NCBI GenBank assembly: GCA_944392105.1
Contig: CALXVM010000008.1
Coordinates: forward strand, 2,148-66,147
Length of the DNA stretch: 64,000 nt
Direction of reading: 5' to 3'
From: an uncultured Clostridia bacterium
Lineage (GTDB): Bacteria; Bacillota; Clostridia; TANB77; CAG-508
The position numbers and the translations under genes were made by a program. Numbering within the stretch: the first letter of the stretch is position 1; every line of letters begins with the position of its first letter. Below, piece by piece: positions 11,643 to 64,000 of this stretch. Below the pieces are notes generated by a model. It ran no database searches. It was not told where the DNA came from and saw only the letters and a list, made by a program, of their open reading frames with translations.

Positions 11643-11695
11643 ATAAGAAAATCTCCTTATGATATTTTTATTTTATCATAAGGAGATTTTCTTAT
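11643..11695 (-). terminator. Perfect 22-bp stem hairpin (bidirectional terminator candidate)
   Basis: ATAAGAAAATCTCCTTATGATA (11643-11664) pairs perfectly with TATCATAAGGAGATTTTCTTAT (11674-11695). The loop is 9 nt and the flanks are T-rich. Confidence 0.7.
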
Positions 11696-11700
11696 ATTTA

Positions 11701-11847
11701 TATTTCACACCGCAAAAATAATCGAGCTTCTATTTTAGATTTTAAGTCATTTTGTCGTGCTTTCGAATGATTTTTTATTATTCTTACTGTTTTAGGCGGT
11801 ATTTATACCTATTCTGTGCGTTTTAAGGCCATATTTTGCGGTCGCAT
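11701..11847 (-). other. Conserved 3' UTR element downstream of variable-protein gene (copy 1 of 3)
   Basis: Alignable by eye with 25581-25721 and 53892-54033. Shared blocks on the coding strand are CAAAATATGNCCTYTAAAACGCACA, AATAGG..AAATACCNCCTAAA, AAATCATTCGAAAG and GACAAAA. It lies between the stop codon and the terminator hairpin. Confidence 0.55.
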
Positions 11848-13185
11848 CTAAAGTGCGACCAAGACCGGACGGAACGAAACATTGCTGCTGCTGCCACCGT
11901 TGTTGTCGAAAGCGAACACGCCAGCACGCGAGCCATCGTAGTAATAGCCTCCGCGGCGGAAGAAAGGACTGCTCGTGAAAGGAAAGTAAGAGCAATCACC
12001 GTACCACGATCCGTTGCTTGTGTTGCCGTTCGCGCTCGTCTCATACACTGCGTCTCCATACTTACTTGCATTTTGATTATAGTTATTTGTGTTATTATCC
12101 GTACTTGCTTTTGTATACACATTCTTCGTCTTTGCGTCTCCATTTACTAAGCTTGAGCCATAGCTTGTTAAATTACCATTTCCGTTATTTACGTATCCTG
12201 CTACATATTCCCAGGCTCCTCCACTCATATCATACACTCCATACACATTTCCTGTTGTACTTTGTGCTCCATTATTTACATATGTGTTTCCACTTCCTCC
12301 TCCTGTGTAATATGAGCTATTACTGTTTATTGTTACTTCTTCTGTTTGTTTTCCATATTTACTTTTACTTAGGTATGCTACTGCTCCCCATTCATCATTT
12401 TTCATCATATGACTATTTAATGTTTTATTATAATTTAAACAATTTGTATATGCCGTTCCTATATAAATATATCTCCAGCTTGCTACTCCTGGTTTTACCT
12501 GTAATGTCTTTGTTGTTACGTTATCTCCGCTACTGCTATTACTATTTCCTTGTACACTACTTGCTTCAAATTTTGCTACCCATAGCCCACTTACTGTTTG
12601 ACCATAATTAAATGCTGGATGGATATTCCAATTTCCTGCTCCACTTGCATTATTAAAGCTTGTTCTTCCTGTACTTGTTTCGTTCGTTAAACCTTTCATG
12701 AACTCTACTTCTATTGTTCCTGTGCTACTACTATGATATCCACTTGTTATACTATATGCATATCTTGGTATCCATACCCACATGCTTCCATCACTTGTTT
12801 TTGCATTTGCCCATTTCTTTGCTGAATAATCATACCAATCTGGGTCGCTTCCTGTTGTCTCTACCCAATCTCCTGCTCCGCCATTTGCTGTTTCGTCCCA
12901 TTTTATAGGTGTCATTCCTTCCCCTAAATCTGGCGTGTTCACTCCTTTTTCTTCATTATAACTTCCATCGCTTGGTAACGTTGGCTCCTCTGGCGTGCTT
13001 CCTCCTATTGTATTATTCATAATACTTGCTAAATCATTATATAATTGGTTTAACTCGTCTTGCTCTTGTTCTACTGCTTCCTTTGTTTTATTTGCTGCCT
13101 CTTGTGCCTTTTTTATTATTCCATTATCACTAAATATTGTACTTATTGTTACACTTGCTAATATTAATAATACTACAATCGTCAC
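11848..13185 (-). CDS. Pilin-like N-terminus / C-type-lectin-fold (FGE-sulfatase-like) surface protein with hypervariable C-terminus, paralog 1; 5' end apparently frameshifted
   Basis: Paralog of 25722-27179 and 54034-55446 (WVWIPRYAYSITSGYHSS, IHPAFNYGQTVSG, HMMKNDEWGAVAYLSKSKYGK, GVYDMSGGAWEYV, SFRPVLV). The GITLIALVVTIVVLLILA segment is in this frame but has no ATG. The expected leader (ATG 13300, RBS GGGAGG, MRVKATKK...) is in another frame, which implies a 1-nt shift near 13210-13225. Confidence 0.7.
   Translation of the reverse strand: MTIVVLLILASVTISTIFSDNGIIKKAQEAANKTKEAVEQEQDELNQLYNDLASIMNNTIGGSTPEEPTLPSDGSYNEEKGVNTPDLGEGMTPIKWDETANGGAGDWVETTGSDPDWYDYSAKKWANAKTSDGSMWVWIPRYAYSITSGYHSSSTGTIEVEFMKGLTNETSTGRTSFNNASGAGNWNIHPAFNYGQTVSGLWVAKFEASSVQGNSNSSSGDNVTTKTLQVKPGVASWRYIYIGTAYTNCLNYNKTLNSHMMKNDEWGAVAYLSKSKYGKQTEEVTINSNSSYYTGGGSGNTYVNNGAQSTTGNVYGVYDMSGGAWEYVAGYVNNGNGNLTSYGSSLVNGDAKTKNVYTKASTDNNTNNYNQNASKYGDAVYETSANGNTSNGSWYGDCSYFPFTSSPFFRRGGYYYDGSRAGVFAFDNNGGSSSNVSFRPVLVAL
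11851..12055 (-). other. G+C-rich hypervariable patch (DGR-type variable region candidate, VR1)
   Basis: Hand count gives 66/120 G+C at 11881-12000, against 17/60 at 12301-12360 in the same gene. Scaffold codons are identical to VR2 and VR4. Variable codons are NNC/NNT. The hairpin GGTCGCA-N7-TGCGACC (11840-11860) encloses the stop codon. Confidence 0.65.
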
Positions 13186-13663
13186 TACTAATGCTATTAG
13201 CGTTATCCCGCTTGTTTTCTCTTTGCTTCTTTACCTTTAGCAAATTTTTTATTTCTAGCTCATCAATCTTGTTTAATTTTTTTGTTGCTTTTACTCTCAT
13301 TTTATTTTCCTCCCATTTACTTCTTTTGTTATTATTGCCAACTTTTCTAGTATTAATCATCTTTATTACATATAATTTAATATCTTTTAATATTGCTGGC
13401 CATCTTTTATTAATGTTCTTAATAAAAAATATGGAATTATTTATTCTTTTTTCTTTTATCGTATAGAATAAATATATCATTTCACTTCTTGATAGTCAAT
13501 ATTAATTATTCCTATTTTTATTACATTTTCTTTACGTTTTTATTACAATTATCTTATGACAAAATCATAGTAAAAACTTTCAATTTACCTTTTAAAGCGT
13601 AAAAATAGGCAGGTTCAAAAGACCCTGCCTATAAATTAAGTTAACACCCCTTTTACGTTTATT

Positions 13664-18912: not shown

Positions 18913-19052
18913 GTAATTCCACCTTTTTTGTTTTTTGATAATTATATCACAAATTTGTTACAATTTTGTTAAAATATTGAAAAAATGTTTTTTATATGTT
19001 AGAATTATATAGATTTAAAATGGTTAAACTATTAGAAAAGGAGAGATTTCAA

Positions 19053-20492
19053 GTGAAAAAAATAAATAAAATTTTATTTACAATTATTTTAATAATTGTA
19101 TTAGTAACAATTTCTAGCTATACATTTGCTGTAAACATTACTTCTACAAACGAAAGCGTTTCAAACACAACGCAAACAACTGGTGGAAGTTCAAAAATTA
19201 CAGTATTCGAGTTAGTTAGCGATAAATCTTGCACAATGAATTTAGGAGACAAAGGAAGATTTGAGAAAAAAGTAGCAGATTTTGATGCAACAGAAAAAAG
19301 TATTACTTTACAATTAAGCTTAGTAAATACATCTGCTCCATCTGAGGTTACAAAACCATCTGAATTATTTTTAGTAATAGATAATTCAAACAGTATGGTT
19401 GAAAACTCAACAGAAGCAGGAATTACAAGAAAAGAAGCCGTTATAGAAGCTGCTAGTAAATTATCAGAAACATTACTTAAAGCATATCCAGATTTAAAAA
19501 TTGGTGTGGTAAGTTTCTCTAGTAAAGACGGCGAAGAAGGAACTTTAGCAGATGCAAAATTGGAGCAAGGATTAACAAGTGATGAATCTCAAGTAAAAAC
19601 AGCTCTTGCAAATATAGAAACAAGTAATGGTGCAAGAACCAACATAGAAGCAGGACTTACAATAGCAGAACAAAATTATACTGATGCAGACAATACAAAA
19701 GTTTTAGTATTATTAAGTGACGGAGTTCCTAATAACGACGCACACGGAAACTTCTCTACTTATTCAGGAGATGTAGCTACTAATACTAAAGCAAAATTAC
19801 AAGAATTAGACAATAACGGAATTAGCATATTAGGTGCCATGATTGGTCTTAATGGAGACGACATCGAGCCAACTACACAAAGAACATATCAAGCTTTAGC
19901 AGAAGAAATATTCGGTACTCCAGAAGAACCTACAGTTGGAAAATTCTACTATATACAAGACCAAGAAATTGAAGAAACACTTAATAATACTATAGTAGAT
20001 ATACTTATTCCAACACCAGACACAAAATTACAAAATGTAGTAATTAAAGACTACTTCCCACAAACTATTATAGACAATTTCAATTTTGAATATGTTGCAT
20101 CACCTAATATTGGAGATGTTAGTACAGAAATAGACAAATCAGATAACAGCATTACTTGGACAATAGAAGTATTAAACGAAGACGAAGTTGCTACATTAAG
20201 CTACAAACTTACATTAAAAGATGACTTTAATAAAGAAATTCTTGATGAAATATTACCTACAAATGAAAAAGTAGACATCACTTATGGAGAAGACGGTCAC
20301 GTTGAATCAGACGACTCTCCTACAGTTAGAGTAAAAGAAGAAGTTCCTCCACAAAAGGAAGACAACACTACTGCACAAGACCCTATTCCACAAACAGGAA
20401 ATAATAGTTTTATAGCATTAGCAGTAATCGTAAGTATAGCTATAGTTTTAGCAATAGTAGGAATTCAAATAAAGAAACATAATAATAAATAA
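19053..20492 (+). CDS. Cell-wall-anchored von Willebrand factor A domain protein (IPQTG sorting signal)
   Basis: MIDAS DNSNSM and LLSDGVPN. The C-terminus is PIPQTGNN + hydrophobic helix + KKHNNK, a sortase signal. GTG 19053 (RBS AAAGGAGAG) is preferred to the track start 18996. Confidence 0.8.
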   Translation: MKKINKILFTIILIIVLVTISSYTFAVNITSTNESVSNTTQTTGGSSKITVFELVSDKSCTMNLGDKGRFEKKVADFDATEKSITLQLSLVNTSAPSEVTKPSELFLVIDNSNSMVENSTEAGITRKEAVIEAASKLSETLLKAYPDLKIGVVSFSSKDGEEGTLADAKLEQGLTSDESQVKTALANIETSNGARTNIEAGLTIAEQNYTDADNTKVLVLLSDGVPNNDAHGNFSTYSGDVATNTKAKLQELDNNGISILGAMIGLNGDDIEPTTQRTYQALAEEIFGTPEEPTVGKFYYIQDQEIEETLNNTIVDILIPTPDTKLQNVVIKDYFPQTIIDNFNFEYVASPNIGDVSTEIDKSDNSITWTIEVLNEDEVATLSYKLTLKDDFNKEILDEILPTNEKVDITYGEDGHVESDDSPTVRVKEEVPPQKEDNTTAQDPIPQTGNNSFIALAVIVSIAIVLAIVGIQIKKHNNK

Positions 20493-20784: not shown

Positions 20785-20839
20785 GCTGACCTGTCCCCGA
20801 TTTCCCAAATCGGGAAATTGGGACCTGTCCCTAATTTCC
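20785..20839 (-). repeat. Family-A palindromic repeat, one full ~55-bp unit
   Basis: GCTGACCTGTCCCCGATTTCCCAAATCGGGAAATTGGGACCTGTCCCTAATTTCC. Its last 9 nt encode G-N-stop of the M23 gene. Confidence 0.85.
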
Positions 20840-22105
20840 AGGTGGGTTAACATATTTTAGTGGGTCTTGCGTGTAGCCGTTTATTCTTACTTCGAAGTGG
20901 CAGTGTGGACCTGTAGAATTTCCTGTTGATCCTACTTCCATTATTAAGTCGCCTTGTTTTACTTGTTTGCCTTTTTCTGTTAGTATTTTTTGTCCGTGAG
21001 CATACAATGTTGTAATTCCGTTTCCATGGTCTATCATAACGCAGTTTCCATAGCTTCCCAATTCTCCTGCATAAGATACTACGCCATCTAGTGCTGCGAC
21101 TATAGGTGCTCCATAGTCTGCTCCTCCTATGTCTAAACCTTGATGTAGTTTTACTACACCTTGTATTGGGTGCTCTCTTATTCCATAATTAGATGTTATT
21201 ACGGTTCCAGACACCGCTACAGGCCAAATTAATGCTCCTCCTGTGTATTGTATATCTATGCTTGGAGTTGTAGAAATTTGCATTATTAATGTTTCTATTC
21301 TTAATTGCTCATTTTTGTATGCTGTTATTTCGTCATTAAGCTTTTTCTCGTTTTCTTGTAGGCTGTTAACATATCCTTGTTGCAAGCTTCTTGTATTACT
21401 AAGTACAAGTGACATCTGTTCTGCTTTTGCCTTTATTACTTTTGTTTGAGCATTTTCGTTCTCTATTTTTTGTTTATATTGTTCTATCTCTTCTTTTTTC
21501 TGAGCAACTTCATTCATAAGGTTAATATCTACTTCTGTTATTTGTCTCATAAAATAAATAGATGACAAAAACTCTGGTAAACTTTTAGACCTTAATAATA
21601 CATCTAAATATGATACCTCTCCTGCTTTAGATATTGCTACAAGTCTTTTTCTTACTGTGTCGTCCTTTTGCTCATAGTCTTTTGTTGTCTCTTCTAATTC
21701 TATTGTCATTGATTTTATAGATTCTTCATAACTGTTTACTTTGTTATTTAGTTCGTTAATTTGATTTTCATAATCTCTTATAGAATCGTCCAATTTTTGA
21801 ATTTGAAGTAGAGTATTTGACATTTCGTTTTGTACATATTCAAGTTGTAAACTAGATTGATTTATTTTTTCTTCGACTTCTTCTTTTTGTTGGTTTAAAC
21901 TGTCTATAGTATTTGTAGCTTGATTTTGCTCTGTGTTTGAGCCTTCGTTATTCTGTGTAGTTGCATTTGTAGTATTTGAATTTGTGCTTGTCATAGAAGT
22001 ACCTGCATTTTCGCTTGCTATGTCTATACTACTTGCTATAACTGTAACAGAATAACTAATTATTAAAATTAAAGCAAGGAGAGTGCAAAGTATTTTGTTT
22101 TTCAA
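20831..22105 (-). CDS. Coiled-coil M23 family metallopeptidase (EnvC/PcsB-like architecture)
   Basis: Signal peptide, long coiled coil, and an M23 domain with HQGLDIG and GPHCHFEVR. It lies downstream of ftsEX. Confidence 0.85.
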   Translation of the reverse strand: MKNKILCTLLALILIISYSVTVIASSIDIASENAGTSMTSTNSNTTNATTQNNEGSNTEQNQATNTIDSLNQQKEEVEEKINQSSLQLEYVQNEMSNTLLQIQKLDDSIRDYENQINELNNKVNSYEESIKSMTIELEETTKDYEQKDDTVRKRLVAISKAGEVSYLDVLLRSKSLPEFLSSIYFMRQITEVDINLMNEVAQKKEEIEQYKQKIENENAQTKVIKAKAEQMSLVLSNTRSLQQGYVNSLQENEKKLNDEITAYKNEQLRIETLIMQISTTPSIDIQYTGGALIWPVAVSGTVITSNYGIREHPIQGVVKLHQGLDIGGADYGAPIVAALDGVVSYAGELGSYGNCVMIDHGNGITTLYAHGQKILTEKGKQVKQGDLIMEVGSTGNSTGPHCHFEVRINGYTQDPLKYVNPPGN

Positions 22106-25450: not shown

Positions 25451-25580
25451 ATCAATTTTTATATTAGGTAAACTTTTTATTCTTTTCCTCTGCCATCTCT
25501 ATTTTCCCCCAATCTATATCATCTATTATTATAGGTTACTATATAGTTTACCGTACATCTATATGAGATATTTTGGTATT

Positions 25581-25721
25581 GCACCCGTGAAATACCCGAC
25601 CTCGTATTTTGCGTTTTGAGGCATTTTGTCCGACTTTCGAATGATTTATCATAGGTTGTGCTATTTTAGGTGGTATTTACGCCTATTGTGTGCGTTTTAG
25701 AGGCATATTTTGTAGTCACAT
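25581..25721 (-). other. Conserved 3' UTR element (copy 2 of 3)
   Basis: Near-identical over most positions to 53892-54033 and more loosely to 11701-11847. Each copy has two CTCYAAAACGCA boxes, and candidate stems show compensatory changes (CCTC..GAGG, and CTT..AAG in copy 1). Confidence 0.55.
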
Positions 25722-27179
25722 CTAATTTGCGACCAAGACCGGACGGAACGAAGTGTTGCTGCTAGCACCGCCATCGTTGCCGTTGAAATAGAACACGCCA
25801 GCACTCGAGCCATCGTTGTAATAGCCTCCGCGGATGAAGAAAGGAGCGCTCGTGCCAGGAAAGCCAGAGTAATCGCCGTACCACGATCCGTTGCTTGAGT
25901 TACCGTTTGAGCTCGTCTCGTAAACCGCGTCTCCATACACTCCTGCATTTGCACTGTAATTACTACTGTTATTATCTGAACTTCCTTTTGCATACACGTT
26001 CTTCGTCTTTGAGTCACTACTATTTACTAAACTTGCTCCATAGTTTGTTAAGCTTGCATTTCCATTATTTACATATGCTGCTACATATTCCCATGCTCCT
26101 CCGCTCATATCATATACTCCATACACATTTCCCGTTGTACTTGCTTTTACTCCTTGTGTACTTGTATAATCTGTCGTTGTTCCTGTATTTTGAGATGCAC
26201 TTGCACTATTTCCTGCTGATCCTGTTATGAAACTGCTACTATTATTTATCCATACTTCTTCTGTTTCTTTTCCATATTTACTTTTACTTAAATATGCTAC
26301 TGCTCCCCACTCATCATTTTTCATCATATGGCTATTTAGTGTGCTATTATAACTTTTACATTTATTATATATATCATTTACACTTATACCTCTCCAGCTC
26401 TGTACTCCTGGTTGTACCTTTATTACTCCACTACTTCCTGCACTACTTGAGCTTGCATTACTTTGGCTTGCTTCAAATTTTGCTACCCATATTCCACTTA
26501 CTGTTTGCCCATAGTTAAATGCTGGATGGATATTCCAGTTTCCTTGTCCACTTGCATTATTAAAGCTTGTTCTTCCACTTGTTGTTTCGTTTCTTGTTCC
26601 TTTCATAAATTCTACTGCTATTGTTCCTGTACTGCTACTATGATATCCACTTGTTATACTATATGCAAACCTTGGTATCCATACCCACATACTTCCATCT
26701 GCTGTTTTTGCGTTTGCCCATTCCTTATTTTCATAATCATACCATTCTGGGTTGCTTCCGTCTGTTTCTACCCAATCTCCTGCTCCCTCATTTGCTGTTT
26801 CGTCCCATTTTATTGGCGTCATTCCTTCTCCTAAATTTGGTGTGTTTACTCCTTTGTCTTCACTAAAACTTCCATCACTTGGCAATTCTGGCTCTTCTGG
26901 TGTTGTTCCGCTTCCGCCTATTCCATTTAGCATATTTTCCATATAGTCTGCTATTTCATTCATTTGTGTTTGTTCATTTATTGTTGCTTCTTTTGTTTTG
27001 TTTGCCGCTTCTTGTGCCTTTGCTATTATTCCGTTTTCACTAAATACTAAGCTTATTGTTATTCCTGCTAATATCAATAATACTACAATTGTTACAACTA
27101 GTGCTATTAGTGTTATACCTTGTGTTTTTTTACAATATGTTTTGCTACTATCTTTTTGCAATAAAAATGTTTTCTCCAT
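25722..27179 (-). CDS. Pilin-like N-terminus / C-type-lectin-fold (FGE-sulfatase-like) surface protein with hypervariable C-terminus, paralog 2
   Basis: ATG 27179 with RBS GGGAGG is preferred over the track start 27242. Leader MEKTFLLQKDSSKTYCKKTQG, then ITLIALVVTIVVLLILAGITISLVF (class III signal-like). C-terminal GVYDMSGGAWEYV ... PFFIRGGYYNDGSSAGVFYF ... SFRPVLVAN. Confidence 0.8.
   Translation of the reverse strand: MEKTFLLQKDSSKTYCKKTQGITLIALVVTIVVLLILAGITISLVFSENGIIAKAQEAANKTKEATINEQTQMNEIADYMENMLNGIGGSGTTPEEPELPSDGSFSEDKGVNTPNLGEGMTPIKWDETANEGAGDWVETDGSNPEWYDYENKEWANAKTADGSMWVWIPRFAYSITSGYHSSSTGTIAVEFMKGTRNETTSGRTSFNNASGQGNWNIHPAFNYGQTVSGIWVAKFEASQSNASSSSAGSSGVIKVQPGVQSWRGISVNDIYNKCKSYNSTLNSHMMKNDEWGAVAYLSKSKYGKETEEVWINNSSSFITGSAGNSASASQNTGTTTDYTSTQGVKASTTGNVYGVYDMSGGAWEYVAAYVNNGNASLTNYGASLVNSSDSKTKNVYAKGSSDNNSSNYSANAGVYGDAVYETSSNGNSSNGSWYGDYSGFPGTSAPFFIRGGYYNDGSSAGVFYFNGNDGGASSNTSFRPVLVAN
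25725..25935 (-). other. G+C-rich hypervariable patch (DGR-type variable region candidate, VR2)
   Basis: See the finding at 25722-25935. Stop-spanning hairpin at 25714-25734 (7 pairs in the mRNA sense, including 2 G-U). Confidence 0.65.
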
Positions 27180-27289
27180 GTTATTCCTCCCACTTTTGTT
27201 TCTTTTGTTATTGTTTCCCATTTTTTTATTTTTAATCATCATTTTACTTATAGGAACAATCTTTTCTTTTTATTTCAATTTGCGATATT

Positions 27290-30813: not shown

Positions 30814-31938
30814 CTGTAGGTTTGTCAAACATATGTCACACTTTCATAGAAACATCTATTGTTGAAATACCAAGTATGACTTTTCTGAACTTTAGTTTCT
30901 TATGTATTCTAAATATTTTTCTTTTGGACTTAACCATTTTAACGGTTTCATAGGAAAATCGTTGTACTCTCTTTCCCATTTTTTTAATCTATTTTTAAAG
31001 TCTTCAAAACTATAAAATACTTTATTGTAGTAAAATCTTTCTTGATCTTTTCTATGACTTCTTTCTACTTTTCCGTTATGCCTTGGTGTCTTCGGTTTTA
31101 TTAGTTTATGTTTTATCCCTAACTCTTCTAATTTCTTCTCAAATCTTGTTTTTCTCTTTGTTGGATTTGGATTTAGCCTATTAGTAAATTCAGTTCCGTT
31201 ATCTGTCTGTATACATTCTATTTTAAATGGAAATGCTTTTATGATATATTCTATAAATTCTGCTGATGCACTTGTGCTTACTTCTTTGCTTGCCCATAGT
31301 TTTCTCATTCTTGTATACTCGTCTATTGCTGTATACTGATAATATCTATCATCTGTTTCTATTACTTCTTTTGTTAAACTTTTCTTTGGTACATATTTTA
31401 CGTCTATTTGTATTCTTTCTCCTGGATACTTCATCTGTTGATATGCTTTTGCTTCATACTCTTTCTTTTTACTTGGTGTTTTCCTATATATTCCTATTCT
31501 TTGCATTACTCTATACAAACTTGTTATACTTCTTGTATATCCTGCTCTTCTTAATTTTATCCACAACACCACTAATCCTGTATCCTTATTTTTGTATTTG
31601 TAATCTTTTATTAGCTTTATTTCTTCTTTTGTATGTTGATTTGGATGGCTATGTGGTTTTCTTGATTTATTAATTAATGATTTTGCTGTACCATCATATT
31701 TTTCTCGCCATCTATATATTGTTTTTCTATGCATTTTAAATTGAATTGCTGCCTTTGTTACTCCATGTTTATAAGAATATTTGATAACTGATTGCTTATA
31801 CATTATATCTTGTGTTATACTATTCATAGGAAATACCTTCTTTCGATAAAGATTTTGTGGTTAAAATCATTTTATCATATTTTTGGTATTTCCTGTTTTT
31901 ATTTTTTCTTACTGTGACATATCTATTGTAAACCTATA
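30814..31938 (-). mobile_element. Insertion sequence (IS481/IS3-like, DDE integrase-type transposase) with ~26-bp imperfect terminal inverted repeats
   Basis: Left end TGTAGGTTTGTCAAACATATGTCACA. The right end reverse-complements to TATAGGTTTACAATAGATATGTCACA. It is flanked by identical 26-bp direct repeats AATAATAAATCCTAAGTTTGATTTTA (30788-30813 and 31939-31964). Confidence 0.8.
30892..31827 (-). CDS. DDE (rve-type) transposase
   Basis: N-terminal HTH (HRKTIYRWREKY). Catalytic candidates are IQIDVKYV, IQTDNGTEF and HNGKVERSH. Confidence 0.85.
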   Translation of the reverse strand: MNSITQDIMYKQSVIKYSYKHGVTKAAIQFKMHRKTIYRWREKYDGTAKSLINKSRKPHSHPNQHTKEEIKLIKDYKYKNKDTGLVVLWIKLRRAGYTRSITSLYRVMQRIGIYRKTPSKKKEYEAKAYQQMKYPGERIQIDVKYVPKKSLTKEVIETDDRYYQYTAIDEYTRMRKLWASKEVSTSASAEFIEYIIKAFPFKIECIQTDNGTEFTNRLNPNPTKRKTRFEKKLEELGIKHKLIKPKTPRHNGKVERSHRKDQERFYYNKVFYSFEDFKNRLKKWEREYNDFPMKPLKWLSPKEKYLEYIRN

Positions 31939-37060: not shown

Positions 37061-37115
37061 GCTGACCTGTCCCCAATTTCCCGATTTGGGAAGTTGGGAC
37101 CTGTCCCTAATTTCC
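37061..37115 (-). repeat. Family-A palindromic repeat, one unit, central loop inverted relative to other copies
   Basis: GCTGACCTGTCCCCAATTTCCCGATTTGGGAAGTTGGGACCTGTCCCTAATTTCC. The loop is GATTT here and AAATC at 3929, 20807 and 63156. The last 9 nt encode G-N-stop of the ATPase. Confidence 0.85.
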
Positions 37116-38945
37116 AACCAGCACTCTTAACGCATTTAATATTGCTAAAACAGATACACCAACATCTGCAAAAACAGCTTGCCACATGTTAGATAAACCA
37201 ATTGCACTTAATATAAGTACTAGTATTTTTACTACAATTGCAAATATAATATTTTGTTTTACAATTTTTAATGTTTTTTTAGAAATTTTTATTGCATCTA
37301 CTACTTTTGAAGGTTCGTCTGTCATTAGTACTACATCTGCCGCTTCAATAGCAGCATCACTGCCAAGTCCTCCCATTGCAATTCCAATATCTGAAATTGC
37401 TAATACAGGAGCATCGTTAATTCCATCTCCAACAAAAGCAAGTTTTCCTTTCTCCGATTTACTTTTCATTAATTCTTCTACTTTTTCTACTTTGTCATTA
37501 GGTAATAACTCTGTATAAACTTCGTCTAAGCCTAATTCTTTTGCTACACTTTCTCCTACAGCTTTCTTATCTCCTGTTAACATTACTATTTTCTTTACAT
37601 TGTTTTTCTTTAACTTTTCAATTGCTTTTTTAGCATCTGCTTTTATTTTATCAGATATTATAATAGTTCCTTTAAATTGATTATTTATAGCTACATATAA
37701 TATTGTTCCTATTTCATTACATTTTATGTATTCAATATTTTTTTCTTGCATTAGTTTTTCGTTTCCTACAAAAACTTCTTTTCCGTCAACTACTGCATTT
37801 ACTCCTAAACCTGATAACTCATGCGTTTCTGATATTTTTTTATTGTCTATATCTTTTCCATATGCTTTTTTTAAAGAATTTGCTATTGGATGATTTGAAA
37901 AGCTTTCGGCATATGCAGCGTATTTAATTAAGTCTTCTTTTGTTATATCTACAGAGTTTACTTTTTTTACTTCAAATACACCTTCTGTTAATGTTCCTGT
38001 TTTGTCAAATACTACTACTTCTGTTTTAGATAAAGCTTCCAAATAATTGCTTCCTTTAACTAATACTCCTAATTTAGATGCCCCACCAATGCCTCCGAAA
38101 AATCCTAATGGTATTGATATAACAAGTGCACAAGGACATGATACTACTAAAAATGTCAATGCTCTATATAGCCATTGTATAAATTCCGTTTCTTTAAATA
38201 TTATTGGTGGAATTATTGCAAGTAATACTGCTATCACAACAACTATTGGTGTATAGTACTTTGCAAATTTACTAATAAAGTTTTCTGACTTAGACTTTTT
38301 ACTACTTGCATTTTCTACTAAATCTAATATTTTGCTAACAGTAGACTCTCCGAAACTCTTTGTTACTTTAATCTCTATTAAACCATTTTGATTTATACTT
38401 CCACTTAATACTTCGTCTCCAATGTTTACTTCTCTTGGAACAGATTCACCCGTTAATGCAGAAGTGTCAAGCATAGAATTTCCGTCTACTATGGTTCCAT
38501 CTAGTGGTACTTTCTCTCCAGGTTTTACTATTATTATATCTCCTATACTTATTTTATCTGGACTTACTTTCTCTATACTGCCATTTTTCTTTATATTTGC
38601 AAAATCTGGTCTAATATCCATAAGGCTAGCTATTGATTTTCTAGATTTATCTACAGCATAGCTTTGGAACATTTCTCCCACTTGGTAAAATAGCATAACT
38701 GCAACTGCTTCTGGATATTCTCCAATTGCGAAAGCACCTATTGTAGCAATTGTCATAAGAAAATTCTCGTCAAAAACTTCTCCTTTAAATATATTCTTTA
38801 TTGCTTCTATAAGTACATCTAATCCCACTATTAAATAACTAATAATATATATTCCAATATTAATCCAAGCATTTTCAAAAGGAATAATTAAAGATATTAA
38901 AAATAATATTAATGCAATTACAACTTTTATTACTTCCTTTTTCAT
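37107..38945 (-). CDS. Heavy-metal translocating P1B-type ATPase (Cd/Zn/Co class likely)
   Basis: CPC motif (VSCPCALVISIP), DKTGTLT, GDGINDAP. No N-terminal HMA domain. It is paired with an ArsR-family gene. Confidence 0.9.
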   Translation of the reverse strand: MKKEVIKVVIALILFLISLIIPFENAWINIGIYIISYLIVGLDVLIEAIKNIFKGEVFDENFLMTIATIGAFAIGEYPEAVAVMLFYQVGEMFQSYAVDKSRKSIASLMDIRPDFANIKKNGSIEKVSPDKISIGDIIIVKPGEKVPLDGTIVDGNSMLDTSALTGESVPREVNIGDEVLSGSINQNGLIEIKVTKSFGESTVSKILDLVENASSKKSKSENFISKFAKYYTPIVVVIAVLLAIIPPIIFKETEFIQWLYRALTFLVVSCPCALVISIPLGFFGGIGGASKLGVLVKGSNYLEALSKTEVVVFDKTGTLTEGVFEVKKVNSVDITKEDLIKYAAYAESFSNHPIANSLKKAYGKDIDNKKISETHELSGLGVNAVVDGKEVFVGNEKLMQEKNIEYIKCNEIGTILYVAINNQFKGTIIISDKIKADAKKAIEKLKKNNVKKIVMLTGDKKAVGESVAKELGLDEVYTELLPNDKVEKVEELMKSKSEKGKLAFVGDGINDAPVLAISDIGIAMGGLGSDAAIEAADVVLMTDEPSKVVDAIKISKKTLKIVKQNIIFAIVVKILVLILSAIGLSNMWQAVFADVGVSVLAILNALRVLVGN

Positions 38946-39756: not shown

Positions 39757-39834
39757 GGTGGATTTAGCGTAGTTGGTTAACGCGCCAGTTTGTGGCACTG
39801 GAGACCGTGGGTTCGAGTCCCACATTCCACCCCA
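39757..39834 (+). tRNA. tRNA-His (anticodon GUG, with encoded G-1 and CCA)
   Basis: Hand-folded cloverleaf: anticodon stem CCAGT/ACTGG, loop TTGTGGC, T arm GTGGG-TTCGAGT-CCCAC. Confidence 0.85.
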
Positions 39835-39906
39835 TAAAATTTTTATTGCATTTATTATTATTTTGTTGTATAATAATAAAGTAATTTTATAATAATATAT
39901 TTATAT

Positions 39907-39981
39907 TGGGCTGTAGCCAAGCGGTAAGGCACCAGACTTTGACTCTGGCATGCGCTAGTTCGAATCTAGCCAGCCCAACCA
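39907..39981 (+). tRNA. tRNA-Gln (anticodon UUG)
   Basis: TGGGCTGTAGCCAAGCGGTAAGGCACCAGACTTTGACTCTGG...GCTAGTTCGAATCTAGCCAGCCCAACCA. Anticodon loop CTTTGAC. Confidence 0.88.
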
Positions 39982-40333
39982 ACAAAAAAATCGTTCTAAA
40001 TAGCTTGTATCTAAGGATACAGGCTATTTTATTGTTTTTCACAGTTTATATTTTCGAATAATTTTAGATATTTAATTTTCATTAGAATATCAATGTTTTT
40101 CACGTTTTTTCATTTTTCTTAATTTTTAGTTTTCTAAACTACCAACTAAACAAGCAACATCATTTTTCTTCCATAATCAAATTTTGTTTAGTTGATAAAG
40201 CGATTTTTCTAAACAAATTCTTAATTAAGAAAAATGCAAAATTTATATATGCTAGATGTACCAAAGGTTTTCAAAGAATAAATTTGTTTAGTTGGTAGCT
40301 TAAAATTTGTGATAATTTAATAATTTTTAGTAA

Positions 40334-41557: not shown

Positions 41558-41813
41558 CCTTCTTATTCATTTTCCAAAGTAAGTATGCTGCCAAAGTCAC
41601 AACTTTTCTTTTCCCTATTGTTATTGTAGGAAAATCATTTTGTTTAAATAATTCATAGGCTTGATTTATTCCAATATGTAAGTCTTTTGAAACGTCCTGA
41701 ACAGACAATATTATAAATGGGTTTTGTACTTTGTTTAGATAATTCATTACAACTTGTTCTTTTAAACTAGTTGTTTCTTTTGTATAAATTATATTCTCAT
41801 TTATATTATTCAT
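41547..41813 (-). CDS. Excisionase-like HTH DNA-binding protein
   Basis: Small protein just upstream of and overlapping int. ILSVQDVSKDLHIGINQAYELFK resembles HTH_17/Xis-type motifs. Confidence 0.55.
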   Translation of the reverse strand: MNNINENIIYTKETTSLKEQVVMNYLNKVQNPFIILSVQDVSKDLHIGINQAYELFKQNDFPTITIGKRKVVTLAAYLLWKMNKKGGV

Positions 41814-46164: not shown

Positions 46165-46220
46165 TAAAACTTTTTTTAGTTTCTAACATACTAGAACGTC
46201 AAAAGACGTTTCGTATGGTC

Positions 46221-49277: not shown

Positions 49278-49279
49278 TT

Positions 49280-54033: not shown

Positions 54034-55446
54034 CTAAATTGTGGCTAAGACCGGACGGAACGAGACGCTGCTGTTGCTAACGCCATAGTAACACTCGAAA
54101 TAGAACACGCCAGCACTAGAACCACCGCCGAAATAGGCTCCGCGATAGAAGAAAGGAAGGCTCGTGTGAGGAAAGCTAGAGGAATCGCTGTACCACGATG
54201 TTGCTCCGCTACCGCTTGTGCTCGTTTCGTACACCGCGTCTCCATACACTCCTGCGTTTGCGTTATAATTATTTGTTTGATTTTCTGAGCTTGCTTTACT
54301 ATACACGTTCTTCGTCTTTGGATCTCCATTTACTAAGCTTTTTCCATAGCTTGTTAAATTGCCATTTCCGTTATCTACATACGCTGCTACATATTCCCAT
54401 GCTCCTCCGCTCATATCGTATACTCCCCAGACGTTTCCGGTTGTACTTTGTGCTCCATTATTTACATATGTGTTTCCACTTCCTCCTCCGGTATAATATG
54501 AACTATTGCTATTTATTGTTACTTCATCGTTTTTTCCATATTTACTTCTACTTAAATATGCTACTGCTCCCCACTCGTCATTTTTCATCATATGACTATT
54601 TAATGTCTTATTATAATTTAGACAGTTTGTATATATGCTATCTACTGTTATACTTCTCCAACTCTGTACTCCTGGCTGTACCATTATTTTTCCATTACTA
54701 TTACTTGCTTCAAATTTTGCTACCCATATTCCACTTACTGGTTGTCCATAGTTAAATGCTGGGTGTATTACATATCCATTTGGAAATTGTGTATAATTTG
54801 TTGTTGTACTATCATTATATTCTACTATTGTTTGTCCTGTTGCTGTTTCGTTACTCGTTCCTTTCATAAATTCTATGCTTATTTCTGTTGCTGTACTTGT
54901 ATGGTATCCTGTACTTGGAATATTATATGCATATCTTGGTATCCACACCCACATACTTCCATCTGTAGTTTTTGCATTTGCCCATTTCTTTGCTGAATAA
55001 TCATACCAATCTGAGTCACTTCCGTCCGTTTCTACCCAATCTCCTGCTCCGCCATTTGCTGTTTCGTCCCATTTTATTGCTGTCATTCCTTCTCCTAAGT
55101 TTGGCGTATTTACTCCTTTTGACTCGCTATAACTCCCATCGCTTGGTAATTCTGGCTCAGGTTCCGGTGTTGTACTTCCTCCACCTATTCCATTTAACAT
55201 ATTTTCCATTGCAGCTGTTACATCATTCATTTGTGTTTGTTCATTTATTACTGCTTCTTTTGTTTTATCTGCTGCCTCTCTTGCTTTTGCTATTATTCCA
55301 TTTTCACTAAACACTAAGCTTATTGTTATTCCTGCTAGTATTAAAAGTACTACAATCGTTACAACTAGTGCTATTAGTGTTATACCTTGTGTTTTTTTAC
55401 AATATGCTTTTCTATTATCTTTTTGTAATAAAAACGTTTTCTCCAT
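54034..55446 (-). CDS. Pilin-like N-terminus / C-type-lectin-fold (FGE-sulfatase-like) surface protein with hypervariable C-terminus, paralog 4
   Basis: ATG 55446 with RBS GGGAGG. Leader MEKTFLLQKDNRKAYCKKTQG, then ITLIALVVTIVVLLILAGITISLVF. C-terminal GVYDMSGGAWEYV ... PFFYRGAYFGGGSSAGVFYF ... SFRPVLATI. Confidence 0.8.
   Translation of the reverse strand: MEKTFLLQKDNRKAYCKKTQGITLIALVVTIVVLLILAGITISLVFSENGIIAKAREAADKTKEAVINEQTQMNDVTAAMENMLNGIGGGSTTPEPEPELPSDGSYSESKGVNTPNLGEGMTAIKWDETANGGAGDWVETDGSDSDWYDYSAKKWANAKTTDGSMWVWIPRYAYNIPSTGYHTSTATEISIEFMKGTSNETATGQTIVEYNDSTTTNYTQFPNGYVIHPAFNYGQPVSGIWVAKFEASNSNGKIMVQPGVQSWRSITVDSIYTNCLNYNKTLNSHMMKNDEWGAVAYLSRSKYGKNDEVTINSNSSYYTGGGSGNTYVNNGAQSTTGNVWGVYDMSGGAWEYVAAYVDNGNGNLTSYGKSLVNGDPKTKNVYSKASSENQTNNYNANAGVYGDAVYETSTSGSGATSWYSDSSSFPHTSLPFFYRGAYFGGGSSAGVFYFECYYGVSNSSVSFRPVLATI
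54037..54245 (-). other. G+C-rich hypervariable patch (DGR-type variable region candidate, VR4)
   Basis: Same scaffold codons as VR1 and VR2, with variable NNY codons. A weaker stop-spanning hairpin at 54026-46. Confidence 0.6.
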
Positions 55447-55608
55447 GTTATTCCTCCCACTTTTGTTTCTTTTGTTATTGTTTCCCATTTTTTTATTTTT
55501 AATCATTATTTTACTTTTTGTTCTGCATTACATTTATATATTAACATTTCAAGTTAGTATAATGATTATTAACTTTAATATAGAAACAATTTTATCTCAT
55601 TTTGCAAT

Positions 55609-63043: not shown

Positions 63044-63188
63044 AAGATCTGCCTCAAATTTCTTCTTTTAAGAAATTTAAATCTGGTCCCAATTTCTTCT
63101 TTTTAGAAATTTAGATCTGGTCCCATTTTCTTTGCTGACCTGTCCCCAATTTCCCAAATCGGGAAGTTGGGACCTGTCCCTAATTTCC
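63044..63188 (-). repeat. Family-A palindromic repeat array (5 units)
   Basis: AAGATCTGCCTCAAATTTC, AAATCTGGTCCCAATTTC, AGATCTGGTCCCATTTTC, TGACCTGTCCCCAATTTC, GGACCTGTCCCTAATTTCC. Interleaved arms are AAATTTCTT/AAGAAATTT and CCCAATTTCCC/GGGAAGTTGGG. The terminal unit encodes G-N-stop of the GH18 gene. Confidence 0.88.
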
Positions 63189-64000
63189 AAAAAGCTTTTC
63201 TTTTACTATGTCCCATACTTCTGGGCTTTCTCTGTCTTTTTCCCAATATGCTGCTCCTGCTAATTTATATTCGTTTATTAAGTCTAGCTTAGCAGAAATT
63301 GATGTAGTGTCTTCTACCCACATCTTATATACGGCACCATTTTGTGTATATTCTACATAGTATTGTTTTAAGTTGTCATCCCATCTCTTTTCTACATTTG
63401 ATGGAAGTACTTTGTCTACATCTTTTAAGTCTACTGTATCACTGCTAATCTTTCCATTTTCTTCTTTCCATAGTCTTGTATAAAATGGTACTGCTAATAT
63501 AAGTTTGTCAGGGTCTACTCCTTCTTGTCCTAAAAATTTAGTAACGTTTACTTCTACCCAGTCACATCCAGCTGTAGTTCCTTCTTTATTAGAGTTTGCT
63601 CCGTATTGGTCATATGCCATAAAAATAATATAGTCTGCTACTTTACTTATAGTATTTCTGTCAAAGCACATTGACCATGTTTCTGAGCCGTCTGGTGCTG
63701 TTACATCTACAGATAAAACTTTGCCCATTTCATTTAGTCTTGGCTCTAGCTCTATTAAGAATCTATTAAACATTGCCTTATCTTCCATGTACATGTTTTC
63801 AAAGTCTATGTTTATTCCGTCTAAATTATATTTTACAACTAAGTCCACAATATTAGCAATTAATTTATTTCTTAATTTGTAATCGTTCATAATTTCAGAA
63901 GTTGTTTCCATCATAGATTCATTTGAAATCATTGCCCATACTTCTATTCCATTGTTATGTGCCCAATTGATATAATTTAGTCCAGCTGTTCCTACATTTT
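63180..64000 (-). CDS. Glycoside hydrolase family 18 domain protein, N-terminus beyond window edge
   Basis: Catalytic DGINIDFE motif. The reading frame stays open upstream of the track Met to position 64000 (…VGTAGLNYINWAHNNGIEVWAMISNES…). Confidence 0.8.
   Translation of the reverse strand, partial: NVGTAGLNYINWAHNNGIEVWAMISNESMMETTSEIMNDYKLRNKLIANIVDLVVKYNLDGINIDFENMYMEDKAMFNRFLIELEPRLNEMGKVLSVDVTAPDGSETWSMCFDRNTISKVADYIIFMAYDQYGANSNKEGTTAGCDWVEVNVTKFLGQEGVDPDKLILAVPFYTRLWKEENGKISSDTVDLKDVDKVLPSNVEKRWDDNLKQYYVEYTQNGAVYKMWVEDTTSISAKLDLINEYKLAGAAYWEKDRESPEVWDIVKEKLFGN

What the first reader, a model, noticed from the sequence alone, without database searches (positions are those of the whole stretch)
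25722..25935. DGR-type variable region at the 3' end of a pilin-like lectin-fold gene, with no retroelement in sight
**Seen in the sequence.**
- The last ~210 nt of this gene form a sharply G+C-rich patch. It uses codons that are rare elsewhere in the window (TCG, CGC, CCG, GGC, GTG, ACG).
- I aligned the coding strands of the three close paralogs (ending at 11848, 25722 and 54034) over an ungapped 31-codon block: W Y x D x S x F P x T S x P F F x R G x Y x x x G S x A G V F.
- 18 codons are identical in all three, without one synonymous difference.
- 13 interspersed codons vary. Most vary at positions 1-2 and keep a pyrimidine at position 3: TGC/TAC/TCC, TAC/GGC/AGC, TTC/GGC/CAC, AGT/GCT/CTT, CGC/ATC/TAT, TAC/AAC/GGC, CGT/AGT/AGT. 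Further 3' come GCT/TAT/TAT and, in the last codon, CTT/AAT/ATT.
- The AT-rich remainder of the genes diverges in the ordinary way.

**Established knowledge.**
- Randomised positions 1-2 of AAC/AAT-derived codons within an otherwise homogenised block is what DGR mutagenic retrohoming produces.
- DGR targets typically carry the variable region at the C-terminal end of a C-type-lectin fold (FGE-sulfatase or DUF1566-like). The protein here ends ...GVYDMSGGAWEYV...RGGYY..AGVFYF...SFRPVLV.

**Inference.**
- These are remote targets of a DGR whose reverse transcriptase, Avd and template repeat lie outside this window.
- Display on a pilin-like N-terminus in a Gram-positive-type genome, in several scattered copies, would be an unusual configuration.

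**Caveats.**
- One-codon indels between paralogs, a few third-position changes, and several conserved adenines in scaffold codons argue against a single template. They suggest more than one template, or partial decay.
Basis: partly seen in the sequence, partly recalled or inferred. Interest (0 to 1): 0.9.

Follow-up and report, generated by a model that had tools for sequence, protein, structure and literature searches.

The report
Retroelement-diversified pilin-like lectin genes
Three copies of a surface lectin-like gene in a human-gut Clostridium end in a short segment that a diversity-generating retroelement rewrites at adenine-templated positions, and in near-identical strains that retroelement starts about 1 kb past the edge of the window, so this is a real but already known kind of system.

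Summary
The 3' ends of the three paralogs (A 11848-13185, B 25722-27242, C 54034-55506, all on the - strand) carry a roughly 145-nt patch that is G+C-rich and adenine-poor. Within it, scaffold codons are identical and the variable codons change mostly at positions 1-2.

The interpretation also holds. Database scans recovered non-coding template repeats that have AAC/AAT exactly at the variable codons. VR_A differs from the nearest template at 15 adenines and 1 other base. A strain allele of locus B differs at 21 adenines and 1 other base.

Contigs 98-99.6% identical to the window's last 7-13 kb continue into a cassette that starts about 1.1 kb past position 64000. In order it holds a MutS-like gene, Avd, a DGR reverse transcriptase split at YMDD by a group II intron, Fic, two templates and a cis target.

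The three targets are in different states:
- B varies between strains only inside its VR.
- C has a mutated IMH/hairpin and is frozen across five strains.
- A has a perfect hairpin but a frameshifted N-terminus.

This is the MutS-like ("Architecture D") DGR type with non-adjacent targets, so it is a new member of a known kind. The pilin-like N-terminus lacks Glu5 and remains unproven. The lectin fold rests only on a threshold-level Pfam match.

The parts
25722..27242 (-). Target gene B (506 aa). It has a pilin-like N-terminal hydrophobic segment (KTQ-GITLIALVVTIVVLLILAG), an FGE-sulfatase-like C-terminal half and a VR at the 3' end.
   Evidence: ORF. Pfam FGE-sulfatase covers residues 292-426 at 23.8 bits (cut-off 23.3). 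N_methyl covers residues 38-62 at 16.8 bits (cut-off 21.2). There are more than 7800 homologs, mostly from ENA gut metagenomes.
25728..25873 (-). Variable region of B (the TR-homologous stretch). The mutagenised part is about 25752-25865.
   Evidence: Aligned to templates: 18-21 mismatches at TR adenines against 5-7 elsewhere. Strain allele L003 has 29 substitutions within 25738-25865. It has none in 25866-26171 or in 25619-25737. Of the 29, 22 fall on TR adenines (p = 1e-9).
25728..25751 (-). G+C-rich 3' end of the VR (IMH-like): TCGTTCCGTCCGGTCTTGGTCGCA. It is shared with the templates.
   Evidence: Exact in A and B, with 3 mismatches in C. It is identical in all templates.
25714..25734 (-). 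Weakened inverted repeat straddling the stop codon of B (GGTCGCA / AATTAGA / TGTGACT).
   Evidence: DNA fold gives -2.7 kcal/mol, z = -0.86. The templates lack any such repeat (sixth sequence).
11848..13185 (-). Target gene A. The longest ORF is 445 aa. The true N-terminus (ATG near 13361) is out of frame, so A is probably a pseudogene or phase-off copy.
   Evidence: The same split (116-aa ORF plus 445 aa) appears in independent assemblies L048 and L049.
11854..11996 (-). Variable region of A, including the intact IMH-like end at 11854-11877.
   Evidence: Against the template in L022: 15 mismatches at adenines, 1 elsewhere, and one 3-nt deletion opposite an AAC run. Fisher p = 1.4e-9.
11840..11860 (-). 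Perfect 7-bp inverted repeat at the end of VR_A (GGTCGCA / CTTTAGA / TGCGACC).
   Evidence: -7.8 kcal/mol, z = -2.9.
54034..55506 (-). Target gene C (490 aa).
54040..54185 (-). Variable region of C, apparently inactivated. The IMH-like end carries 3 substitutions (GGTCTTAGCCACA) and the hairpin is lost.
   Evidence: The VR is identical in the window, L043, L044 and L045, with 1 difference in L047. L042 and L046, which keep an intact IMH, have very different VRs. There are at least 8 non-adenine mismatches to every template seen.
25568..25721 (-). Conserved 3' flank shared by the non-adjacent targets. The equivalents are 11694-11847 and 53880-54033. Its function is unknown.
   Evidence: (family D4). 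No Rfam family matches it. Cis targets beside the templates have a different flank.
63180..64000 (-). 3' part of the GH18 gene that borders the DGR cassette in syntenic contigs. It marks the DGR-proximal edge of the window.
   Evidence: L034 6239-7062 matches window 63177-64000 at 99.6%. In L033, L034, L043, L044, L045 and L047 the next genes are MutS_I, bAvd and the RT.

Best explanation
The G+C-rich 3' ends of genes A, B and C are variable regions (VRs) of a chromosomal diversity-generating retroelement.

**The cassette.** In strains of the same species it begins about 1.1 kb beyond the right end of the window. In window orientation it reads as follows.
- On the + strand: a MutS-domain-I accessory gene (MSL), Avd, and a DGR reverse transcriptase. 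The RT gene is split at the YMDD codons by a 2.65-kb group II intron.
- On the - strand: Fic, two template repeats (TRb, TRa) and a cis target gene.
- TRb in L020 and TR1 in L002 have a scanned or hand-read promoter match. A TTGATATAAT motif precedes both L002 TRs. Each TR is followed by a conserved, structured spacer of about 120 nt.

**Mechanism (inferred from the Bordetella, Legionella and Treponema paradigm).**
1. A TR-spacer RNA is reverse-transcribed by RT-Avd, with random misincorporation opposite template adenines.
2. The cDNA replaces the homologous ~145-nt VR of any target that keeps the G+C-rich 3' end (TCGTTCCGTCCGGTCTTGGTCGCA) and the adjacent inverted repeat.
3. Because template adenines sit at positions 1-2 of AAC/AAT codons, about 15-20 residues of the C-terminal lectin-like (FGE-sulfatase/CLec-type) domain are recoded while the scaffold codons stay identical.
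4. This avoidance of adenine also explains the G+C-rich, A-poor patch in a 30% GC genome.

**State of each target.**
- B is or recently was an active target.
- C has lost its IMH/hairpin and is a frozen fossil.
- A keeps perfect targeting signals, but its reading frame is broken near the N-terminus.

**What is shown.** The repeat anatomy, adenine specificity, cassette content, synteny, and strain-level VR turnover.

**What is inferred.** That this very genome carries the cassette, that the RT is spliced and active, and that the proteins are surface-displayed binding proteins.
For: **Templates.**
- A scan with the scaffold pattern found non-coding copies with AAC/AAT at the variable codons.
- A second scan found 20 metagenome loci.
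- The template cores are invariant across many contigs (10 and 8 loci with identical cores), whereas the VRs all differ.

**Adenine specificity.**
- VR_A against the L022 TR: 15 adenine and 1 non-adenine mismatch.
- L003 (an allele of locus B) against the L023 TR: 21 and 1.
- VR_B: 18-21 against 5-7.
- Fisher p is 1e-9 to 1e-13.

**Cassette.**
- RT with IGNYTSQ and YMDD motifs, and RVT_1 at 58.5 bits.
- bAvd PF22296 at 81 bits, and NF033474 'DGR protein Avd' at 82.8 bits (cut-off 80).
- MutS_I at 31 bits.

**Synteny.**
- L033, L034, L043, L044, L045 and L047 match window 50.8-64.0 kb at 98-99.6% and run on into the cassette.
- The tiling path L034 to L035 to L020/L023 overlaps at 97.4-99.5%.
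- L045 carries TRb about 7.2 kb past the window end.

**Strain-level turnover confined to the VR at locus B.**
- DNA comparison with L003; 22 of 29 differences fall on TR adenines.
- P0124 differs only in the 3' half of the VR, as expected for 3'-anchored homing.

**Targeting signals.**
- A hairpin is present after the VRs and absent after the TRs.
- C, with mutated signals, is invariant in 5 strains.

**Splicing.** Joining the exons in silico restores a 347-aa RT with YMDD. Rfam RF02004 (175.8 bits), RF00029 (46.2 bits) and TIGR04416 (350 bits) identify the intron.
Against: - The window's own cassette and cognate templates were not seen. Look-ups of the 68.7-kb source contig failed or did not show it.
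- Two more divergent strains (L042, L046) have lost the RT, so presence in this genome is likely but not proven.
- VR_B has 5-7 and VR_C at least 8 non-adenine mismatches to every template sampled. That requires unsampled TR alleles or later ordinary mutation.
- Several scaffold adenines (TAC, GAT, ACG, AGC, GGA, TAT) are unchanged in all copies. That implies selection or incomplete mutagenesis.
- The RT gene is interrupted by an intron, and some assemblies call only a truncated 228-aa product. Activity therefore depends on splicing, which was not tested.
- The lectin fold was not confirmed. Two AlphaFold runs gave pLDDT 34-35, and the PDB sequence and profile searches found no CLec chain.
Confidence: 0.9

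Rival explanations
1. Fossil targets. The patches were written by a DGR in the past, but in this particular genome the retroelement is absent or inactive, so the three VRs now evolve only by ordinary mutation. The RT could be lost as in some relatives, or disabled by the group II intron.
For: - L042 and L046 lack the RT at the syntenic site.
- In L044 the cis target has recombined with the template.
- VR_C is frozen with mutated signals.
- Gene A is frameshifted.
- The RT is intron-split, and some assemblies call it as a 228-aa product.
- VR_B carries 5-7 non-adenine mismatches to the sampled templates.
Against: - All six contigs that are at least 98% identical to the window over the overlap keep MSL and Avd. 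L033, L034, L043, L044 and L045 also keep RT exon 1. L047 shows only a 137-aa RT fragment before its contig ends.
- The intron has intact ribozyme domains and an intact maturase, and removing it in silico restores the frame.
- Locus B shows three VR alleles on nearly identical backgrounds.
Confidence: 0.08
2. Ordinary paralog evolution. Gene conversion homogenises the 3' ends of the three paralogs, and diversifying selection acts on ligand-contact codons, with no retroelement involved.
For: - Patchy gene conversion among the paralogs is real. L003 differs from B in two body patches that resemble other paralogs.
- The synonymous deficit inside the VR is not significant on its own (p = 0.078).
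Against: - This does not explain non-coding copies with adenine exactly at the variable positions, nor the adenine-specific mismatch spectrum.
- It does not explain the adjacent Avd and RT.
- It does not explain the A-depleted composition.
- It does not explain the loss of variation precisely where the IMH/hairpin is mutated.
Confidence: 0.01
3. Foreign cassette. The G+C-rich ends are a horizontally acquired exon-like module from a higher-GC donor that spread among the paralogs by recombination.
For: The local GC is sharply different (0.53 against 0.30).
Against: - The composition shift is specifically a loss of A on the coding strand (16% against 44%). That is what a template that restricts adenines predicts.
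- The same sequence exists as promoter-driven non-coding templates beside an RT in the same species.
Confidence: 0.01

Closest known systems
Legionella pneumophila DGR (Avd + MutS-like accessory; 'Architecture D' of Wu et al. 2018, PMC5758913)
   Same: - The accessory set is MSL + Avd + RT.
- It is chromosomal, not phage-borne.
- The VR sits at the C-terminal end of a surface-destined protein.
- There is a G+C-rich IMH-like end plus a downstream inverted repeat.
   Different: - Here there are two tandem templates, on the strand opposite the RT. A promoter match precedes TRb in L020 and TR1 in L002.
- There are several non-adjacent targets.
- The RT is split by a group II intron.
- The target has a pilin-like N-terminus rather than a lipoprotein/TAT signal.
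Treponema denticola DGR (TvpA plus up to seven scattered targets)
   Same: - One retroelement serves a family of paralogous FGE-sulfatase/CLec-type targets scattered over the chromosome.
- The cassette varies between strains.
   Different: - Treponema uses an HRDC accessory, and its targets are lipoproteins.
- Here the targets lie within about 12-54 kb of the RT, and the accessory is MSL.
Trichodesmium erythraeum DGR (12 VR-bearing genes; TR expressed as a separate 265-nt RNA; PMC4143802)
   Same: - The template is transcribed as its own small RNA.
- It has many targets.
- The RT gene is disrupted (by a stop codon there, by an intron here).
   Different: - It is a cyanobacterial system with a different target family.
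- It has a single TR.
Bordetella phage BPP-1 DGR (Mtd/Avd/TR/Brt), the mechanistic prototype
   Same: - Adenine-specific mutagenesis.
- AAC-rich template.
- The VR lies at the C-terminus of a CLec-type fold.
- An IMH plus hairpin defines the recipient.
- A structured spacer follows the TR.
   Different: - It is phage-encoded with a single adjacent target.
- All parts are on one strand, with avd-TR-brt transcribed together.
Bacteroides DGRs that diversify type V pilus adhesins (bioRxiv 10.1101/2024.11.15.621889)
   Same: A human-gut commensal in which a DGR diversifies putative pilus-associated adhesive proteins.
   Different: - That is a Gram-negative type V (chaperone-less, lipoprotein-processed) pilus system.
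- Here the organism is a Gram-positive-type Clostridium.
- The N-terminus resembles a type IV/class III signal, which is unproven.

Membership tests
Diversity-generating retroelement (target/VR) | A VR-TR pair whose differences are confined, with minor exceptions, to template adenines. | tested here: met
   - VR_A against the L022 TR: 15 adenine mismatches and 1 other.
- The locus-B allele L003 against the L023 TR: 21 and 1.
- VR_B: 18-21 and 5-7.
- VR_C: at least 8 non-adenine mismatches.

The templates are from same-species or sister contigs, not from this genome itself.
Diversity-generating retroelement (target/VR) | A DGR-clade reverse transcriptase (motif [I/L]GxxxSQ, YxDD) next to the template. 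| tested here: met
   - The RT has IGNYTSQ and YMDD, with RVT_1 at 58.5 bits.
- It is present in contigs 98-99.6% identical to the window's right end, starting about 1.9 kb past position 64000.
- None lies inside the window.
- No formal RT phylogeny was made.
Diversity-generating retroelement (target/VR) | An accessory protein (Avd, HRDC, MSL or CH1). | tested here: met
   NF033474 DivGenRetAVD scores 82.8 bits (cut-off 80). PF22296 bAvd scores 81 bits. PF01624 MutS_I scores 31 bits, cut-off 20.6.
Diversity-generating retroelement (target/VR) | A G+C-rich IMH at the 3' end of the VR, with an inverted repeat just downstream that the TR lacks. | tested here: met
   - A: exact IMH-like 24-mer plus a perfect 7-bp hairpin (-7.8 kcal/mol).
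- B: exact 24-mer, weak hairpin.
- C: 3 substitutions, hairpin lost.
- TRs: no hairpin.

Function was not tested experimentally.
Diversity-generating retroelement (target/VR) | The VR lies in the C-terminal part of a C-type-lectin (FGE-sulfatase/DUF1566) or Ig fold. | tested here: inconclusive
   - PF03781 scores 23.8 bits against a cut-off of 23.3 for B, and is matched by 23 of 37 family members.
- AlphaFold models were unusable at pLDDT 34-35.
- No CLec chain was found by sequence or profile in the PDB.
Diversity-generating retroelement (target/VR) | Variation between or within populations is concentrated in the VR. | tested here: met
   - Locus B: 29 substitutions inside the VR and none in 305 nt upstream or 118 nt downstream.
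- Three VR alleles occur in one 90% cluster.
- Locus C is invariant in 5 strains.
- Read-level data were not available.
Type IV pilin / class III (prepilin) signal peptide protein | N-terminal G-[FIMLV]-T-L-[IL]-E motif with Glu at +5, followed by a hydrophobic alpha-helix. | tested here: not met
   - The sequence is KTQ-G-ITLIA-LVVTIVVLLILAG, with Ala in place of Glu5.
- PF07963 scores 16.8 bits against a cut-off of 21.2, and matches 11 of 37 members at E <= 0.01.
- A PDB profile search hits geopilin and MshA N-termini only at E = 0.05-0.3.
- From general knowledge, Glu5-less minor pilins such as GspK exist. 'Works like a tip pilin' is therefore not excluded.
Type IV pilin / class III (prepilin) signal peptide protein | Prepilin peptidase and filament assembly genes (PilB/PilC-type) in the genome or neighbourhood. 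| tested here: not met
   No such Pfam families appear among 30 large ORFs of the window scanned. The rest of the genome is not available.

The most novel reading that the evidence does not exclude
The targets could be Glu5-less, modular type IV 'tip' pilins of a Gram-positive gut Clostridium, with a C-terminal lectin module that a DGR hypervariates.
- One retroelement would then reprogram the binding specificity of a type IV filament.
- Individual paralogs would be switched in or out of diversification by decay of their IMH/hairpin. Loci B and C would offer a natural experiment on this.
- The whole system might be gated by splicing of a group II intron inserted at the RT's catalytic YMDD codons.
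Probability: 0.2. Interest if true: 0.6.

Novelty: new member of a known kind. Interest (0 to 1): 0.4.

Why it matters
The finding documents a widespread family in human-gut Clostridia. There are more than 7800 database relatives of the target, and 206 sequences fall in the RT's 90% cluster.

One chromosomal DGR serves a cis target plus several non-adjacent paralogs, and individual targets can be seen in active, frozen and broken states within one species. That gives a ready-made natural test of which cis signals (IMH, hairpin) are needed for retrohoming.

It also points to possibly pilus-displayed variable lectins in a Gram-positive commensal.

For genome scanning, the lesson is practical. 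An adenine-depleted, G+C-rich 3' patch with variation at codon positions 1-2 is a reliable DGR flag even when the retroelement falls outside the window.

Tried and rejected
**RT or TR inside the window.** None was found. There is no Y[x]DD-bearing RT-like ORF. Only the three VRs match the scaffold or IMH patterns with up to 3 mismatches.

**Phage origin.** Two scans of IMG/VR with TR-specific patterns found nothing. The cassette sits among housekeeping genes.

**Known RNA in the conserved 3' flank.** Rfam at gathering thresholds finds only three tRNAs in the window.

**Fold confirmation.**
- The full-length AlphaFold model with 37 sequences gave pLDDT 34.3.
- The C-terminal 239-aa model with 119 sequences gave pLDDT 35.4.
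- Both were too poor for a fold search, so none was run.
- PDB phmmer and profile searches gave no lectin or FGE hit.

**Recovering the window's own contig.** It is 68,711 nt and holds P0121, P0303 and P0304. Exact-protein look-ups failed or returned other contigs.

**A single cognate template for all three VRs.** Rejected. No sampled TR explains B or C without 5 or more non-adenine changes. TR alleles are polymorphic, with 14 distinct cores matching the TR-type pattern in 21 loci (L002 plus the 20 metagenome loci), about 10 of them templates and the rest VRs.

**The synonymous-site deficit as stand-alone proof.** It is not significant (p = 0.078).
Full report
**What is in the window.**
- Three paralogous genes lie on the - strand: A (11848-13185), B (25722-27242, 506 aa) and C (54034-55506). 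They are 73-75% identical as proteins.
- A distant fourth paralog (46764-48074, 28% identity) shares only the N-terminal hydrophobic segment.
- The neighbours are housekeeping genes: a class A PBP, an L,D-transpeptidase, FtsE/FtsX, transketolase, AlaRS, MiaB and GroEL.
- The window is 29.7% GC.

**Check of the observation.**
- The last ~200 nt of B reach 53-55% GC.
- The 31-codon ungapped block is as described. 18 codons are identical in all three copies. 11 are non-synonymous, 9 of them varying only at positions 1 and/or 2. 2 are synonymous changes, both in copy C.
- Over the whole repeat, variable codons keep their third base far more often than elsewhere in the gene (14/25 against 58/218, p = 0.0045).
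- The lack of synonymous change is only a trend (p = 0.078).
- The coding strand of the patch has 16% A, against 44% in the rest of the gene.
- Conservation does not stop at the stop codon. It continues for about 150 nt.

**Finding the templates.**
- No second copy of the patch and no RT-like ORF exists in the window.
- A scan of one genome per species, using the scaffold with N at the variable positions, returned two loci. One was another target gene in a gut Clostridium MAG (L001). The other was a 1345-nt scaffold of Clostridium sp. CAG:273 (L002).
- L002 holds two non-coding copies in which the variable codons read AAC or AAT. Each is preceded by TTGATATAAT and followed by a conserved ~120-nt tail.
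- A TR-specific pattern then found 20 metagenome loci, mostly human gut and many with two templates.
- The template cores are identical across 10 and 8 loci respectively, while every VR differs. This is the expected relation of master copy to recipients.

**Adenine specificity.**
- Against L002 TR1, VR_B has 21 mismatches at the 45 template adenines of the 147-nt TR1 stretch and 6 at the 102 other positions.
- Templates from closer relatives fit better. VR_A against the L022 template gives 15 adenine and 1 non-adenine mismatch, plus a 3-nt deletion opposite an AAC run. Wu et al. 2018 describe that kind of indel (PMC5758913).
- The VR of L003, a strain allele of locus B, against the L023 template gives 21 and 1.
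- Fisher tests give p = 1e-9 to 1e-13.
- VR_B (5-7 non-adenine mismatches) and VR_C (at least 8) fit no sampled template cleanly.
- Among 14 distinct cores that match the TR-type pattern, about 10 are templates and the rest VRs, so template alleles are polymorphic. B looks like the product of an unsampled allele that combines L022-type and L023-type features.

**The retroelement.**
- In L015 and L004 the two templates are followed, on the opposite strand, by three genes.
  - A 356-aa RT with IGNYTSQ and YMDD (RVT_1).
  - A 120-aa Avd: PF22296 at 81 bits, and NF033474 at 82.8 bits against a cut-off of 80.
  - A 140-aa MutS-domain-I protein.
- This matches the MSL-containing 'Architecture D' of Wu et al. 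2018. That paper also records templates and RTs on different strands, and non-adjacent targets in 45 of 372 DGRs.
- In L020 and L022 a cis target gene sits directly upstream of the templates.
- A promoter-like site (TTGCAA-17-TATAAT) precedes TRb.
- The spacer after each template folds into a conserved multi-stem structure. It shows no compensatory changes, because the sequences are nearly identical.

**Where the retroelement is relative to the window.**
- The RT cluster includes 228-aa forms that end YMD-GATRF. Looking up one of them (P0290) returned contigs with the gene order MiaB-GroEL-GroES-PNP-GreA-hypothetical-GH18-MSL-Avd-RT. That is the gene order of the window's last 8 kb.
- L034 aligns to window 56917-64000 at 98.1-99.6%, and L033 likewise.
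- Four longer contigs (L043, L044, L045, L047) match window ~50.8-64.0 kb at 98-99% and continue into the same cassette.
- From these, MSL starts 1088 nt past position 64000 and RT exon 1 about 1.9 kb past it. In L045, TRb ends about 7.2 kb past it.
- The tiling path window-L034-L035-L020/L023 overlaps at 97.4-99.5%.
- The targets are therefore about 12 kb (C), 40 kb (B) and 54 kb (A) from the RT. That is non-adjacent rather than remote.
- The window's own continuation could not be retrieved. Its proteins are recorded on a 68,711-nt contig, but look-ups did not return it.
- Two more divergent strains have lost the RT: L042 and L046, which are 94-99% identical to the window over segments of the overlap.
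- I therefore rate presence of the cassette in this genome as likely, not shown.

**States of the three targets.**
- Every VR ends in TCGTTCCGTCCGGTCTTGGTCGCA, followed by an inverted repeat that straddles the stop codon. The templates diverge at exactly that point and have no repeat.
- **A** has the exact 24-mer and a perfect 7-bp hairpin (-7.8 kcal/mol). Its ATG-initiated frame is shifted relative to the pilin-like segment. The same split appears in independent assemblies.
- **B** has the exact 24-mer and a weak hairpin.
  - Within its 90% protein cluster there are three VR alleles.
  - At the DNA level, L003 differs from B by 29 substitutions in 25738-25865. It has none in the 305 nt upstream or the 118 nt downstream.
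  - 22 of the 29 fall on template adenines.
  - P0124 differs only in the 3' half of the VR, as expected for 3'-anchored homing.
- **C** has three substitutions in the 24-mer and no hairpin.
  - Its VR is identical in the window and three strains and differs by one base in a fourth, although these strains differ elsewhere.
  - L042 and L046, which keep the intact 24-mer at this locus, have very different VRs.
  - C therefore looks like a target that dropped out of diversification when its recognition signals mutated.

**The protein.**
- B matches FGE-sulfatase (PF03781) just above threshold over residues 292-426, as do 23 of 37 relatives.
- The motif GVYDMSGGAWEYV and the terminal SFRPVLV are typical of this fold (general knowledge).
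- Two AlphaFold runs failed at pLDDT 34-35, so the fold is not independently confirmed.
- The N-terminus (…KKTQ-GITLIALVVTIVVLLILAG…) resembles a class III signal. However, it scores below the N_methyl cut-off and has Ala where type IV pilins have Glu5.
- No pilus assembly genes are in the window.
- One survey lists a 'GspG-type pilin' domain among rare DGR target domains (PMC11661182).
- I found no paper in the held library describing DGR-diversified type IV-like pilins in Firmicutes.

**Verdict.**
- The system is a new member of a known kind: an MSL/Avd-type chromosomal DGR with two templates, one cis target and several non-adjacent targets.
- The points of moderate interest are the pilin-like display domain, the side-by-side active, frozen and broken targets, and the group II intron at the RT's YMDD site.
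- Interest is 0.4.

Noticed in passing
L035 2058-4706 (also L036, L043, L044, L045; 3' end in L020, L022, L023): The DGR reverse-transcriptase gene is split by a 2649-nt group II intron, inserted exactly in the YMDD codons (…TATATGGATG|GTGCGACC…ATTGCTAT|ACTTTGTA…).
- Rfam RF02004 scores 175.8 bits and RF00029 scores 46.2 bits.
- The intron ORF matches TIGR04416 at 350 bits and has an HNH domain.
- Joining the exons in silico restores a 347-aa RT with YMDD.
- Sister-species contigs (L015, L004) lack the intron.
- Several assemblies break at this point.
- I found no report of an intron-split DGR RT in the held literature.
   Followed up: yes
window 13130-13361: Target gene A is frameshifted between its ATG-initiated leader (MINTRKVGNNNKRSKWEENKM…) and the pilin-like hydrophobic segment. 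A-runs (A6-A7) lie nearby. The same split (116-aa ORF plus 445-aa ORF) appears in independent assemblies L048 and L049. It could be a pseudogene or a slippage-type phase switch.
   Followed up: partly
window 39758-49373: The fourth, VR-less pilin-like paralog (46764-48074) appears to lie on an integrated mobilisable element beside two tRNA genes (39758-39978).
- The element carries a tyrosine integrase (40334-41557), DUF3846 and a Mob_Pre relaxase (48324-49277).
- 94-nt direct repeats (46088-46181 and 49280-49373, 88% identical) bracket the paralog and the relaxase.
   Followed up: partly
window 3797-3971, 20786-20850, 37062-37126, 59919-59994, 63023-63199: A family of intergenic palindromic repeats (REP/MITE-like) has the core CTGACCTGTCCCCAATTTCCCAAATCGGGAAGTTGGGACCTGTCCCTAATTTCC. 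Copies are 64-94% identical, and some are in tandem. One copy also lies between the hypothetical gene and GH18 in L033.
   Followed up: no
window 25568-25721, 11694-11847, 53880-54033: About 150 nt downstream of each non-adjacent target is conserved. It is also conserved in other species (L001, L011, L014). It contains two copies of a motif AAAAT(AT)GCCTC(T)AAAACGCA about 95 nt apart. It matches no Rfam family. Cis targets next to the templates have a different flank. Its function is unknown.
   Followed up: partly
L044 399-1331 and 1090-1330: In one strain the cis target gene runs straight into a template and its spacer (…FPNTSNPFFKRGGNYNNGSNAGVFYFNNNNGNSNSNN…RYNEKFKRR…). This is evidently a VR/TR homologous-recombination deletion, which also removed most of Fic.
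   Followed up: partly
L042 5422-6329; L046 3423-6245: Two more divergent strains have a decayed cassette at the same chromosomal site.
- L042 keeps only MSL and an Avd-like ORF.
- L046 keeps a target, one template and MSL, but no Avd or RT.
   Followed up: partly
L002 897-1040 and L015 (between TR1 and TR2); L020 4237-5232, L045 558-1553: Toxin or defence-type genes are nested in the cassette. A ToxN/AbiQ-like N-terminal fragment lies between the two templates in the CAG:273-type locus (identified by eye only). A Fic/DOC + HTH gene lies between the templates and the RT in the window's species (Pfam Fic at 73.7 bits).
   Followed up: no
window 18996-20492 and 50547-51251: A VWA-domain protein with a GBS104-like tip-pilin Ig domain and a C-terminal hydrophobic segment is present, and a sortase lies elsewhere in the window. 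These are hints of a sortase-type pilus unrelated to the DGR targets.
   Followed up: no
window 30892-31827: An IS-type transposase (rve integrase core) lies next to the split transketolase genes.
   Followed up: no
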